A DNA stretch of 64,000 nucleotides from Balamuthia mandrillaris (lineage: Eukaryota), in NCBI GenBank assembly GCA_031835245.2, contig JAVKOQ020000069.1:124001-188000 (forward strand), in the 5' to 3' direction. The notes below the pieces were generated by a model that ran no database searches, was not told the origin of the DNA, and saw only the letters and a program-made list of their open reading frames with translations. Positions 12,394-29,536 of the stretch are shown one piece after another. Made by a program: the position numbers and the translations under genes. Position 1 is the first letter of the stretch. The number at the start of each line of letters is the position of its first letter.

Positions 12394-12703
12394 CTCTCTT
12401 CTCTTTTATTTTGCTCATCTGAACGGTTTCATTTTATTCGCCAAATGAACAAATGATTGTACACTATTCAAAGGAGGAACTTCTCCTTTATCACTTCACC
12501 AAACCTTTCTCCCTGTCCCCATTTTGATCACTTCCGAAATGGCCGGCATTCGCTGCCTCCACGGATAGCTATCCAAGGGGAAACAGTTGAGAGGCCCCAT
12601 TGCGGCAGCGTACCGTCCGACCAAGCGTCCAAACTCCACACGTGCAGGAAATTACTCAAAAAGAATCCCACAATAAAAAACAGCTGTTGAATTCGTAAGA
12701 TAA

Positions 12704-14617
12704 ATGAAACGGCGTTTACACTCTTACCTATTATGCACAGTCCCACCACCACGCAAGGGTATCACAACACAGCCCACCATTCCTTCCACAGACCACTACG
12801 TCACCCCTGGAGAAGTTCGCAAGCACTACAAAGTCAGCCACGAGAGCCTCCGCCGCTGGGCAGAAGCAGGAGATGGACGCCTTCGCTTTACTCGCCAAAG
12901 GACGTCGGTTCCGGCCTCAACTACAACCGCCCAGGCTTTCAAGCCCTTCTGGAACGAGTGTACTCGGGCGTGGTCTCCGTGGTTGCAGTTACCCACAAGG
13001 ACCGTCTCTGCCGCTATGGGTTCGAGCTGGTGGAGTTCTTATTTGCCAAGACAGGCACACGGCTCATGGTTCTCAGTGACCAGGATGCTCCCGAACGAGA
13101 CCCCAGCAGGGAGCTTGCTGACGACCTGCTGGCCATCTGCAACTACTTCGTGGCCAAGAACAACGGCAGGAGGGCTCAAAAGCGCCGCCAGCGCAAGCGA
13201 CGAGATGCTGTCGCCGTTGAATCAGACGAAGAAGAGAAAGAAGGCGTCGAAGAAGGGGAAGAGGAGAGAGAAAGAGAAAGAGAAAGCGGAGGAGGAGGAG
13301 GAGGAGGAGGAGAAAGCACGACCACCAGTCGAGTACAAAGTGAGAAAGATACGGATTTACCCGACGACGAAACAGAAAGAGACCTTGAAGAGGTGGATAG
13401 GAACGACCAGGTGGACCTACAACCAGTGTCTGACAGGGGTCAAAAACGAAAACGTGCCACGGACCAAGAAAGCCCTGCGGGCCAAGTACCTAAACCAAGA
13501 CGCCCCCGATCTGCCCGATTGGGTGCTGGACACACCGTACGACGTAAGAGACGAAGGCATGAATGACCTGCTCAAGGCCTACAGCACCAACCTGGCCAAA
13601 CAGAGGAGACAGAAGAAGAGACTGAAGTTCGAGGTGCGATTCCGCAGCAAGAAAGCCCCTCAGGAGAGCATAGTGATTCACATCAAACATTGGCATGGTG
13701 CTGGGAGGATCTATCCCAAGTCCTTCGGCAAGGAGGAGGTCCTCAGGGCCGCTGAGACCCTGCCGGACAAACTGCCCAGCGACAGCCGGTTGACGCGCAC
13801 CCGCTGGGGCAAGTACTACTTATGCATTCCCGTACCCTTGGAGGCGGTGGTGGTGGGTGGTAAAGGGGACGATAACCAAGTCCCTGTTACTCCCACAGTC
13901 GCAAGGGTGGTGGCCATCGATCCTGGGGTGCGCACCTTTGGTACTTGTTATGAAGCCCCCAGCGGTGAAGCCTACGAATGGGGAAGGAGGGACATTGGAC
14001 GCATTGAGCGCCTTTGCCATTGTCTGGATCTACTCCAGAGCCGATGGAGCCAACCAGGGGTCAAGGCCAGGCGGCGATACCGCATGCGGCGGGCGGCCGC
14101 CCGGATGAGGGAACGCATCCGCAACCTGGTGGACGAGGTACACAAGAAGATGGCCCTCTGGTTGGTGGAGAACCACGACCTGGTGCTCCTCCCCGAGTTC
14201 GCTACGGGCAACATGGTCCTCAAGCGAGCCCGCAGGCGGATCGGGAGCAAGACCGTGAGAGCCATGCTGGGGTGGGCGCACTTTCGCTTTCGTCAAAGGC
14301 TGTTGAACAAGGCCAGAGAGCATCCTCGTTGTCGAGTGGAGATCGTGAGCGAGGCCTATACCTCCATAACCTGCGGCCATTGCGGGCAGCTACGTAGGGA
14401 CTTGGGCAAGAAGGAGGTCTTCTACTGCCCCCATTGCCACCTCAAGGCGGGAAGGGACATCCACGCAGCTCGGAACATCCTCCTTCGCTACCTTGCCACC
14501 CACAACTACTACCCTCAAACAACGACAACAACAACATCAACAAGAGCCGACGAGTCTCTCCCCATGGGGAGGGACGGTTTGTTGGCACTGGGTCCTACCC
14601 CCTCATATGTACCTTAA
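12704..14617 (+). CDS. tnpB: Fanzor2/TnpB RNA-guided endonuclease (true start uncertain)
   Basis: KIRIYPTTKQKETLKRWIGTTRWTYN N-terminal motif; RuvC-I VAIDPGVRTF; LLPEF; VSEAYTSITCGHCG; CPHC; RuvC-III RDIHAARNIL; no stops. Confidence 0.93.
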   Translation: MKRRLHSYLLCTVPPPRKGITTQPTIPSTDHYVTPGEVRKHYKVSHESLRRWAEAGDGRLRFTRQRTSVPASTTTAQAFKPFWNECTRAWSPWLQLPTRTVSAAMGSSWWSSYLPRQAHGSWFSVTRMLPNETPAGSLLTTCWPSATTSWPRTTAGGLKSAASASDEMLSPLNQTKKRKKASKKGKRREKEKEKAEEEEEEEEKARPPVEYKVRKIRIYPTTKQKETLKRWIGTTRWTYNQCLTGVKNENVPRTKKALRAKYLNQDAPDLPDWVLDTPYDVRDEGMNDLLKAYSTNLAKQRRQKKRLKFEVRFRSKKAPQESIVIHIKHWHGAGRIYPKSFGKEEVLRAAETLPDKLPSDSRLTRTRWGKYYLCIPVPLEAVVVGGKGDDNQVPVTPTVARVVAIDPGVRTFGTCYEAPSGEAYEWGRRDIGRIERLCHCLDLLQSRWSQPGVKARRRYRMRRAAARMRERIRNLVDEVHKKMALWLVENHDLVLLPEFATGNMVLKRARRRIGSKTVRAMLGWAHFRFRQRLLNKAREHPRCRVEIVSEAYTSITCGHCGQLRRDLGKKEVFYCPHCHLKAGRDIHAARNILLRYLATHNYYPQTTTTTTSTRADESLPMGRDGLLALGPTPSYVP

Positions 14618-14668
14618 TGGTGTGGTACATATGTGCATGATTTGCAAGATGTGCAAGTTTAATGTAGG
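12711..14668 (+). mobile_element. IS607-family element encoding Fanzor2 (non-autonomous derivative)
   Basis: Serine-recombinase remnant overlapping a TnpB/Fanzor ORF, intronless, with GG at both proposed ends and 9-nt repeats near the right end. The left end is tentative. Confidence 0.85.
12761..13566 (+). pseudogene. tnpA: IS607 TnpA serine recombinase, internally deleted and frameshifted
   Basis: The HTH (YVTPGEVRKHYKVSHESLRRWAEAG) is in one frame and DVGSGLNYNRPGFQALLERVYSGVVSVVAVTHKDRLCRYGFELVEFLF...ELADDLLAICNYF in another. There is no catalytic Y-x-R-V-S motif between them. Confidence 0.85.
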
Positions 14669-14688
14669 CGTAGTAATAAGAGGAAGAA
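14537..14688 (+). ncRNA. Predicted omegaRNA: scaffold to ~14668 plus flank-derived guide
   Basis: Long stem 14537-14585; GGG-TCCTA-CCC hairpin 14590-14600; perfect 10-bp stem 14604-14613/14624-14633; CCTA(C) complementary to terminal (G)TAGG 14664-14668. Confidence 0.7.
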
Positions 14689-14743
14689 CAAGAAGCGAAA
14701 AAAAAAAGGTTCAATTAGTATTGAAAGCTTTGTTATTGTGCGT

Positions 14744-27928: not shown

Positions 27929-29536
27929 TTAATAGAAAAAGGAAGAAAGAGTGGCGGCAGAGGAGCCGCTCTCTCCGCCGTCTTCACCGTCGTCGCTGCT
28001 GCCGCTGCCGTCTTCTTCGTGGTCGTCGTCGTCGTAGACATCACGGTCCTCGGGGTCCCTCACCTCGCCGCTGCCGTCCAAATAGCTTTGATACTTGCCC
28101 CACGCGAGGTCAGCCGCCTGGTCGCAGATCTCAAAGGCAGCGTCCACCGAAGGGCGAAAGTGCACCCCGCCGTTCACCCTGCTCTGCCCGCACTCCTGGA
28201 GGTAGTCCTCCAGGGTGCTCCAGCTGTGAACGATGTCCTCCTGCGGGGTCACGCCGGGCTCGACGTTGGAGCTGCCCGCCGGGAAGGCGACGGTGTAGTT
28301 GAAGTTTTGGGCTCGCTCCTCTCCGAACAGACGGGTCAGAGCGCCGACGAAGGCGGAGCAGAAGCAGCTGGAGCCGGAGGGAAACTCGGAGTGCTGCATG
28401 GTCTTCAGGTAGGACCTCCATTCGCGGCCTTTCAGGGAGACGGTGCCGCGGCCGGGTCCGCCCCAGCCCTCTATCTCTTCGTCCTCGTGGAGGAAGCGGA
28501 TGGCTGAGACGGGGCGAACGGCGTCGAAGCGAAGCTTCTCTCTCCAGGCAAGAATGGCGGCGTTCCAAAGGGCCTGGTTCAGGTAGAAGTCGCCTTGGAT
28601 GAACTCGGACAGGTCAAAGCTGTCCTCCCGCGCAAAGTGGACGAAGGGGAAGGCCAAGGACATGACCTTGCTCTCAAAGTACTCCGCCAGGACCTTCTGC
28701 CGGTCCGTCAGGGAGGAGACCCTGTCGATGACCTCCTCGGCCTGGGCGCGGTACTGCTCTTCATCCTGGGCGAAAGAAACCGGGGAGAGGGTCGTTCCTT
28801 GGAGCTCTTGGGCGGCTGAGGAGAAGCCAAAGCCAGCGGCATAGCGGATGTGCGGCACGATGTGGGATTGCACGAACCAGACGTGGAGGGAGTCCTGCGT
28901 CATGAGCGGCTGCCAACGATCCGGGTTGTTGAGGCGGTCAAACGTGTTGACGGGATGGTAGGCGGTGTAGTCCAGGTAGGCCCTCTGATGGTGTTGGAAG
29001 CCCCTTTGCAGGTGGCGGCTGCCGAGCACGTCTCCCAGCTGGTTCATGCCATCTCGGTGCATGAAGTCGATGATGTCCTCTGCCACGCTGGTTCCAACCC
29101 ATCGAGGGGTATCCTCCTCCACGCTGCCATTCAAAGGAAAGCCCAGGTCGGCCATGAGCTCCGTGAGGGCGGGCTCGGTCGAGGGGAGTAGATCCAGGAC
29201 GACAAAGTAGGTGGCATAGCTGAGGGCTTGTTCGATGTTGGAATCGTTTCTCTCCGAAGCGGGTTGGCGATAGGCCGCCCCGGAGATGGAGCCCAGAGCG
29301 GTGCTTTGGTACTGCGCCCAGCTGTCGAACCATGCGGTGGTGACGTAGGCGGTGGTGCGCAGCAGGTAAGGCGGTTCCAGCGTGACGAGCGTGGGGACGA
29401 TGGCATTGATCCAGGAGAAGAGCACCGGGACGTTGTTCTGGAGGTAGAGGATGTCCGCCAGAGGTTGGCTGGAGGAGAGCGGGAGGACTGCCGAGAAAGC
29501 GAAGAGGAGGAGCCAAAGGCTCAGGTGTTTGTTCAT
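27929..29536 (-). CDS. Secreted vanadium haloperoxidase-like / PAP2-superfamily protein, intronless
   Basis: Signal peptide, WREKLRFDAVRP, EFPSGSS and QSRVNGGVHF; GC-rich codons. Confidence 0.8.
   Translation of the reverse strand: MNKHLSLWLLLFAFSAVLPLSSSQPLADILYLQNNVPVLFSWINAIVPTLVTLEPPYLLRTTAYVTTAWFDSWAQYQSTALGSISGAAYRQPASERNDSNIEQALSYATYFVVLDLLPSTEPALTELMADLGFPLNGSVEEDTPRWVGTSVAEDIIDFMHRDGMNQLGDVLGSRHLQRGFQHHQRAYLDYTAYHPVNTFDRLNNPDRWQPLMTQDSLHVWFVQSHIVPHIRYAAGFGFSSAAQELQGTTLSPVSFAQDEEQYRAQAEEVIDRVSSLTDRQKVLAEYFESKVMSLAFPFVHFAREDSFDLSEFIQGDFYLNQALWNAAILAWREKLRFDAVRPVSAIRFLHEDEEIEGWGGPGRGTVSLKGREWRSYLKTMQHSEFPSGSSCFCSAFVGALTRLFGEERAQNFNYTVAFPAGSSNVEPGVTPQEDIVHSWSTLEDYLQECGQSRVNGGVHFRPSVDAAFEICDQAADLAWGKYQSYLDGSGEVRDPEDRDVYDDDDHEEDGSGSSDDGEDGGESGSSAATLSSFFY

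What the first reader, a model, noticed from the sequence alone, without database searches (positions are those of the whole stretch)
14537..14688. Readable omegaRNA scaffold with pseudoknot and predicted guide
Seen: (1) TCAACAA..GCC..GTCTCTCCC-CATG-GGGAGGGAC-GGT-TTGTTGG long stem 14537-14585; (2) GGG-TCCTA-CCC hairpin 14590-14600 whose loop can pair with TAGG 14665-14668; (3) perfect CATATGTACC/GGTACATATG stem 14604-14633. The scaffold overlaps the last codons of the ORF, as established for TnpB/Fanzor omegaRNAs. Inference: the scaffold ends at GG 14668 and the guide begins CGUAGUAAUAAGAGG.
Basis: partly seen in the sequence, partly recalled or inferred. Interest (0 to 1): 0.85.

Follow-up and report, generated by a model that had tools for sequence, protein, structure and literature searches.

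The report
Fanzor2 transposon guide RNA, end corrected
This is most likely the guide-RNA gene at the right end of a eukaryotic jumping gene of a known kind (IS607/Fanzor2); its hairpins and predicted knot are conserved in relatives, but the element ends two bases later than proposed, so the predicted guide starts at 14671.

Summary
The stems are real (z -4.0) and overlap the last codons of a Fanzor2 ORF in an IS607-type element (about 12614-14670) with a broken serine-recombinase tnpA. The pseudoknot holds up and is 5 bp, not 4: CCTAC 14594-98 with GTAGG 14664-68. In 6 of the 15 closest loci, loop and partner change together and are followed by CG (shuffles: mean 0.55, max 3). The boundary is wrong by 2 nt. 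Other copies in DNA runs diverge after 14670/14671, not 14668. At the left end three other copies start matching at 12612/12613, sharing CCG. The published NlovFz2 scaffold also ends GG-CG and has a CCG TAM. So the scaffold is predicted to end at CG 14670, the guide to start at 14671, the TAM to be CCG, and the shared dinucleotide is CG, not GG. The outer pairing of stem 1 is also in a different register. The element is missing from this locus in run X6. Expression of this RNA is untested. Verdict: new member of a known kind. The scan noted two similar Fanzor2 scaffolds in other genomes.

The parts
12613..12615 (+). Predicted TAM CCG at the left junction; CG 12614-15 is the inferred crossover dinucleotide
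   Evidence: Three other copies (1 contig in X1, 2 in X6) start matching at 12612, 12612 and 12613 after unrelated flanks; NlovFz2 TAM is CCG
12614..14670 (+). IS607-type Fanzor2 element, CG to CG, about 2.06 kb, GC 0.56 versus 0.47 for the window
   Evidence: Ends; an X6 contig joins 12555 to 14724 with only 150 letters between; GC
12797..12874 (+). N-terminal HTH of tnpA, now in the frame of the Fanzor ORF
   Evidence: HTH_17 E 0.011, below Pfam cut-off; tblastn hits to TnpA N-termini of related loci
12895..13206 (+). Serine-recombinase part of tnpA in another frame. About 60 codons between HTH and this part are missing compared with relatives, including the stretch with their RVSS motif: broken tnpA
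   Evidence: Pfam Resolvase E 6.8e-12, profile 37-142 of 145; spacing in L004 TnpA; an X6 contig diverges after 12895
12704..14617 (+). 637-codon ORF: Fanzor2 nuclease with DPG (D at 13919), alternative E (14351), C4 zinc finger (14372-14437) and RD (D at 14456). Its first ~65 codons are likely tnpA-derived
   Evidence: best PDB hit 9B0L ApmFz2, E 2.2e-18
14546..14586 (+). omegaRNA stem 1: 17 bp with a 3-nt bulge (14576-78) and CATG loop
   Evidence: pair probabilities; by eye, all 9 kept relatives fold a hairpin just before the knot hairpin
14590..14601 (+). Pseudoknot hairpin GGG/CCC with a 6-nt loop; loop bases CCTAC 14594-98 are the 5' strand of the knot
   Evidence: same motif in the NlovFz2 scaffold
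14604..14633 (+). Stem 3, perfect 10 bp; the ORF stop codon lies in its loop
   Evidence: hairpins of other sequence at this place in relatives
14632..14659 (+). Three 9-bp direct repeats (TGTGCATGA, TTTGCAAGA, TGTGCAAGT), candidate TnpA sites in DNA; 14639-59 can also fold as a fourth RNA stem
   Evidence: 9-bp repeats bind TnpA at the IS1535 left end; the role here is inferred
14664..14670 (+). 3' strand of the knot (GTAGG 14664-68) plus terminal CG 14669-70: predicted end of scaffold and element
14671..14690 (+). Predicted guide, from host right flank: TAGTAATAAGAGGAAGAACA
   Evidence: Follows from the boundary; no second match with fewer than 3 mismatches in 16 nt within the window; RNA 3' end untested

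Best explanation
The stretch is likely the omegaRNA (right-end guide RNA) gene of a eukaryotic IS607-type Fanzor2 transposon, predicted to fold into three or four hairpins closed by a 5-bp pseudoknot, with the scaffold predicted to end at CG 14670 and the guide to start at 14671. Shown: a Fanzor2 ORF with an intact catalytic triad and zinc finger, a broken tnpA, element ends shared with other copies (CCG at the left, CG at the right), compensatory changes in the knot among relatives, and absence of the element from this locus in run X6. Inferred: a transcript through the ORF end into the flank is processed to about 128 nt of scaffold plus guide. The knot docks in the WED/RuvC groove as in ApmFz2. 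TnpA supplied by other copies would excise the element by crossover at CG. That rejoins the CCG TAM (12613-15) to the target (14671 onward), which Fanzor-omegaRNA would cut, so repair from an element-bearing allele restores the element.
For: Fanzor signatures. Folding. Knot plus CG in 6 of the 15 top-scoring loci versus shuffle mean 0.55, max 3 of 100 shuffles, with loop/partner pairs CCTAC/GTAGG, CCTAG/CTAGG, CTTGG/CCAAG, CTTGC/GCAAG and CTTC/GAAG. The fifth pair, not used for selection, is Watson-Crick in 9 of 10 sequences, swap p 0.024. Right end: a 32-nt X19 contig covers 14639-14670 and stops there; loose ends lie behind 14670 (1 contig in X1, 1 in X6) and 14671 (5 in X6); none listed behind 14668 (40 further loose-end rows not shown). 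Left end. The NlovFz2 scaffold has the same loop hairpin (CCTTT) and ends AAAGG-CG, with TAM CCG. In ISXfa1 the crossover dinucleotide is part of the scaffold and the knot is needed for activity.
Against: No RNA evidence for this copy: in X16 (about 3% of the run read, not a small-RNA library) the 4 reads with loose ends at 14621 carry another family's upstream sequence. 9 of the 15 top loci lack the strict CG motif (L081 has TG), and it is not enriched in more distant loci (1 of 43, 4 of 76). 5 of 6 listed X6 contigs also share T 14671, so a 1-nt later boundary or a target preference remains possible. The X6 allele has 150 letters where a precise empty site would have 113, and they could not be read. 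tnpA is broken and the native Fanzor start may be lost, so this copy may be inactive. The related sequences are not independent, and 4 of the 5 knot pairs were selection criteria.
Confidence: 0.88

Rival explanations
1. One reading: a canonical GG-core IS607 end at 14668, with the guide starting CG at 14669.
For: Canonical IS607 elements cross over at GG. More distant loci do show knot plus GG (6 of 43, shuffle max 4).
Against: CG 14669-70 is shared by other copies, by 8 of 9 kept relatives and by the tested NlovFz2 scaffold. The left end shares CCG, not GG.
Confidence: 0.03
2. The scaffold is right, but this copy is a non-functional relic: tnpA is deleted, the Fanzor start is lost, and no omegaRNA is made or loaded. 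This concerns activity, not identity.
For: About 60 codons are missing in tnpA, and other copies hold extra sequence near 12716 and 12742. No reads of this copy's scaffold were shown.
Against: Catalytic residues, zinc finger, all stems and the 5-bp knot are intact. An open frame runs from ATG 12704. Presence/absence among runs suggests a recent insertion.
Confidence: 0.4
3. The conserved 3' end is only a DNA signal for TnpA (9-bp repeats plus crossover bases), and the hairpins are chance or a terminator.
For: The part most shared among copies (14632-14670) is the repeat-bearing end.
Against: The partner of the conserved end lies 70-140 nt upstream in a loop and changes with it. The ApmFz2 structure shows this knot in RNA.
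Confidence: 0.05

Closest known systems
NlovFz2 (Naegleria lovaniensis Fanzor2) and its omegaRNA, Saito et al. 2023, PMC10432273
   Same: Scaffold has a GGG-T-[5-nt loop]-CCC hairpin whose loop matches the 5 nt before a terminal CG. TAM CCG equals the left junction here. Protein motifs look alike by eye (PFW, KIRxYP, TPYDVRD, DPGVRTF).
   Different: Different knot letters (CCTTT/AAAGG versus CCTAC/GTAGG) and different stems. Protein identity was not computed. This copy has a broken tnpA and a likely HTH-Fanzor chimeric ORF; activity untested.
ApmFz2 (mimivirus Fanzor2, PDB 9B0L), PMC11832414
   Same: Best PDB hit (E 2.2e-18); D-Ealt-D triad; knot between the 5' part and positions -4 to 0 of the scaffold.
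   Different: ApmFz2 has a GGG TAM and a 205-nt scaffold; here about 128 nt, a CG end and a predicted CCG TAM.
ISXfa1 and canonical IS607 (Yoon et al. 2023, PMC10711439; Chen et al. 2018, PMC6188088)
   Same: Serine-recombinase TnpA plus TnpB-family nuclease; ends share a dinucleotide; that dinucleotide is part of the RNA scaffold; knot needed for activity; 9-bp repeats near an end.
   Different: Those cross over at GG in bacteria; this one has CG at both ends and sits in a eukaryotic, intron-bearing genome.

Membership tests
Fanzor2 / pro-Fanzor nuclease | RuvC1 DPG motif | tested here: met
   IDPG at 13916; criterion from PMC10711439
Fanzor2 / pro-Fanzor nuclease | Alternative catalytic E about six residues before the zinc finger | tested here: met
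   E550, first Cys 557
Fanzor2 / pro-Fanzor nuclease | D-X(125,275)-[TS][TS]XX-C4 zinc finger-X(5,50)-RD | tested here: met
   D406, T553 S554, C557-C578, R584 D585; motif from PMC3627910
Fanzor2 / pro-Fanzor nuclease | Eukaryotic or viral host and an N-terminal extension | tested here: met
   Flanking WH2 and short-chain dehydrogenase genes are split into pieces as by introns. The extension with PFW motif at 12941 is shared with homologues. Host lineage not determined.
Fanzor2 / pro-Fanzor nuclease | Placement in the Fanzor2 clade of a tree with reference proteins | not tested
   No tree built; only motifs and the best PDB hit
IS607 element | Serine-recombinase TnpA with N-terminal HTH upstream of the nuclease | tested here: met
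   Resolvase E 6.8e-12, weak HTH_17, but broken in this copy
IS607 element | Same dinucleotide at both ends, no terminal inverted repeats or longer duplication | tested here: met
   CG at 12614-15 and 14669-70; no inverted pair joining the two ends among the 25 longest of 57 shown
IS607 element | Crossover dinucleotide is GG (canonical) | tested here: not met
   CG here. The NlovFz2 scaffold and TAM imply the same, so this is a known-lineage variant rather than an exclusion.
Fanzor2 omegaRNA | Structured RNA at the right end overlapping the ORF end, with a loop-to-3'-end pseudoknot | tested here: met
   (prediction and covariation, not a solved structure)
Fanzor2 omegaRNA | Expressed small RNA bound by Fanzor and extending into the flank | tested here: inconclusive
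   One RNA-seq run laid, about 3% read; right-end reads were from another family
Fanzor2 omegaRNA | Directs TAM-dependent DNA cleavage | not testable with these tools
   Needs a cleavage assay

The most novel reading that the evidence does not exclude
A currently mobile, multicopy CG-core IS607-Fanzor2 family in a cellular eukaryote, with filled and empty alleles of the same locus in public data sets. Its compact (about 128-nt) omegaRNA and CCG TAM would cut the empty allele, making Fanzor-driven homing directly testable in a native eukaryotic host. In this copy, a deletion has also fused the transposase HTH in frame to the nuclease.
Probability: 0.25. Interest if true: 0.5.

Novelty: new member of a known kind. 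Interest (0 to 1): 0.25.

Why it matters
Fanzor2 omegaRNAs with this pseudoknot are already described and solved, so the architecture is not new. This case adds natural covariation for a 5-bp knot, a corrected guide start and TAM (needed for any test of the enzyme), and a CG-ended IS607 lineage, with more distant relatives ending in GG. It also gives a locus that is filled in some data sets and lacks the element in another, useful for asking whether Fanzors maintain their transposons in eukaryotes as TnpB does in bacteria.

Tried and rejected
No whole genome is held, so copies could be seen only through laid contigs. Rfam: no relevant family; one chance snoRNA hit elsewhere, E 0.049. No second copy of the element or of its ends in the window. 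The single-protein scan of viral contigs found no relative; the alignment query did. No RNA holder listed among indexed runs; this is no evidence either way. MAFFT alignment A2 misplaced the 3' motif in 3 of 10 rows, so no alignment-based pair count or covariance model was made; pairs were counted by motif position instead. Summed contig depth peaks at 14624-14724 (640, 811, 317 against 12-73 in the next bin). This suggests many elements share the right end, but it is not a copy number. X19 has no cover over 12604-13512, but a hole proves nothing, so only X6's bridging contig is used for absence. A programmed frameshift in tnpA was considered and rejected, because relatives have an unbroken TnpA that is about 60 codons longer there; a paper search with those terms found none. 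Host lineage was not pursued. Of the 159 loci fetched, 134 were tested; the others were dropped as duplicates or for under 170 nt downstream, an N or no usable anchor. Score bins use summed bits, which lifts L076, L118 and L010.

Full report
Observation. The region folds well beyond chance: z -3.62 for 14500-14700 and z -4.02 for 14543-14670, with 0 of 200 shuffles as stable. Only 5 of 499 tiled 128-nt pieces of the window fold as well. The outer part of stem 1 pairs 14546-53 with 14579-86 (probability 0.92-1.0; -26.3 kcal/mol), not 14537-43 with 14579-85 (probability 0.0; -22.4).

Context. The ORF 12704-14617 has HTH_OrfB_IS605, RuvC-region and TNB zinc-finger hits. It carries the DPG motif, the shifted glutamate (E550) and the RD motif, which PMC10711439 (passages and one part of the main text read) and PMC3627910 (passages) use to define Fanzors. 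Its best solved relative is ApmFz2, 9B0L. It has 804 homologues at E up to 0.001 among 7992 candidates scored, the best at 53-58% identity. An overlapping frame encodes a serine-recombinase domain lacking the first 36 profile positions. The TnpA HTH lies in the Fanzor frame, and relatives have about 60 more codons between the two parts. So tnpA is broken here by a deletion near 12895, and the first ~65 codons of the long ORF are likely tnpA-derived. Overlap of tnpA with the Fanzor N-terminal extension in another frame is also seen in L002, L004, L076 and L081. The neighbours are a WH2 protein gene on + and a short-chain dehydrogenase on -, both in pieces as expected for introns. The host is thus a eukaryote; its lineage was not determined.

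Element ends. No genome was held, so public runs were laid. At the right end, a 32-nt X19 contig spans 14639-14670 and stops. Contigs of other copies run off into unrelated sequence behind 14670 (1 in X1, 1 in X6) and 14671 (5 in X6, consensus agreement 0.48). None of the listed rows ends at 14668; 40 rows were not shown. At the left end, three contigs of other copies begin to match at 12612, 12612 and 12613 after unrelated flanks, so all share CCG 12613-15. The element therefore runs CG to CG, about 12614-14670, with no inverted pair joining its ends among the 25 longest shown. One X6 contig joins 12555 to 14724 with 150 letters between, so the element is absent from that allele. A precise empty site would give 113 letters; the flanks of that allele are diverged and the letters could not be read.

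Pseudoknot test. I fetched 80 metagenome and 79 viral loci with an alignment of 30 proteins and tested 134 of them. The search was sequence-free: a 3-bp hairpin with a 6-nt loop, 4 loop bases of which match the 4 nt before a chosen dinucleotide 35-170 nt downstream. Among the 15 loci with summed score of at least 240 bits, 6 had the motif before CG (shuffles: mean 0.55, max 3 of 100), 3 before GG (mean 0.43, max 3), 3 before TG and 1 before CA. Among 43 loci at 180-240 bits, 1 had CG and 6 had GG (mean 1.21, max 4). Among 76 weaker loci neither was enriched (4 and 5; means 1.97 and 2.47). For the window plus 9 loci kept (8 CG, 1 TG), the pairs were CCTAC/GTAGG (4), CCTAG/CTAGG (3), CTTGG/CCAAG, CTTGC/GCAAG and CTTCC/CGAAG: 49 of 50 Watson-Crick pairs. 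Four of five pairs were selected for, so the fair figure is the fifth pair: 9 of 10, swap p 0.024. The sequences are related, so this is support, not a strict probability. The base after the end varies in these ten (T 5, A 4, C 1), as expected for a guide. By eye, these loci also fold a hairpin just before and just after the knot hairpin, with different letters.

Literature. The NlovFz2 scaffold in supplementary file 4 of PMC10432273 (rows seen) has the same GGG-T-loop-CCC hairpin with loop CCTTT and ends AAAGG-CG. Its measured TAM is CCG (passages). PMC10711439 shows for ISXfa1 that the fixed crossover base belongs to the scaffold and that the knot is needed for activity, and predicts the knot in Fanzor2s (supplement part 1 read). 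PMC11832414 (passages) shows the knot at positions -4 to 0 in the ApmFz2 structure. PMC6188088 (passages) describes GG crossover and 9-bp repeats bound by TnpA; three similar 9-mers lie at 14632-58. I saw no explicit statement of a CG-core IS607 in the listings or in the passages read. The NlovFz2 data imply it, however, and figures were not visible.

Mechanism. Shown: the parts, the ends, the covariation and an allele without the element. Inferred from TnpB and Fanzor2 biology: the RNA (about 14543-14690) is loaded by Fanzor2 with the knot at its core. The guide is the right flank from 14671. Excision by TnpA from other copies rejoins TAM CCG to that target, and cutting of the empty site favours retention of the element. 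Expression is untested: 41 reads of run X16 were laid from about 3% of the run, and those at the right end carry another family's upstream sequence, which also keeps the TCCTA loop. Activity of this copy is open, since tnpA is broken and the natural Fanzor start may be lost.

Verdict. This is a new member of a known kind, closest to NlovFz2; interest 0.25. Two earlier notes of this scan describe similar scaffolds with misplaced ends in other genomes. They were read after my boundary was set and were not checked; a sequence look-up and a look-up in this genome returned nothing.

Noticed in passing
window 12704-12900: The deletion in tnpA puts its HTH in frame with the Fanzor ORF, giving a likely chimeric 637-aa protein. 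Other copies hold extra sequence near 12716, 12742-48 and after 12895.
   Followed up: partly
window 14632-14670 (runs X1, X6, X19): Many contigs share only the last 35-50 nt of the right end and have long unrelated upstream sequence. This suggests several diverged families or non-autonomous elements using the same end.
   Followed up: partly
window 12612 and 14671: A before CCG (window plus 2 of 3 other copies) and T after CG (window plus 5 of 6 listed X6 contigs) hint at a wider target preference, ACCG then T.
   Followed up: no
L087-L134 group (e.g. L089 3568-3633, L068 1941-2005): More distant phage/bacterial relatives have a much shorter scaffold with the same hairpin and knot (loop GATA, partner TATC) ending in GG, about 58 nt apart.
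   Followed up: partly
protein hits P0001-P0012: Many homologues end in LGLTP, LGLGP or GAYPL, the translation of the knot hairpin; this window's ORF ends LGPTP. The RNA shapes the protein's C-terminal tail.
   Followed up: no
window 13173: Contigs of both X1 and X6 carry 3 more bases here than the window (in frame), a variant or an assembly difference.
   Followed up: no
window 28161-28545, 30593, 48001, 49153: The five 128-nt pieces that fold as stably as the scaffold; 28001-29000 is the most GC-rich kilobase (0.63).
   Followed up: no
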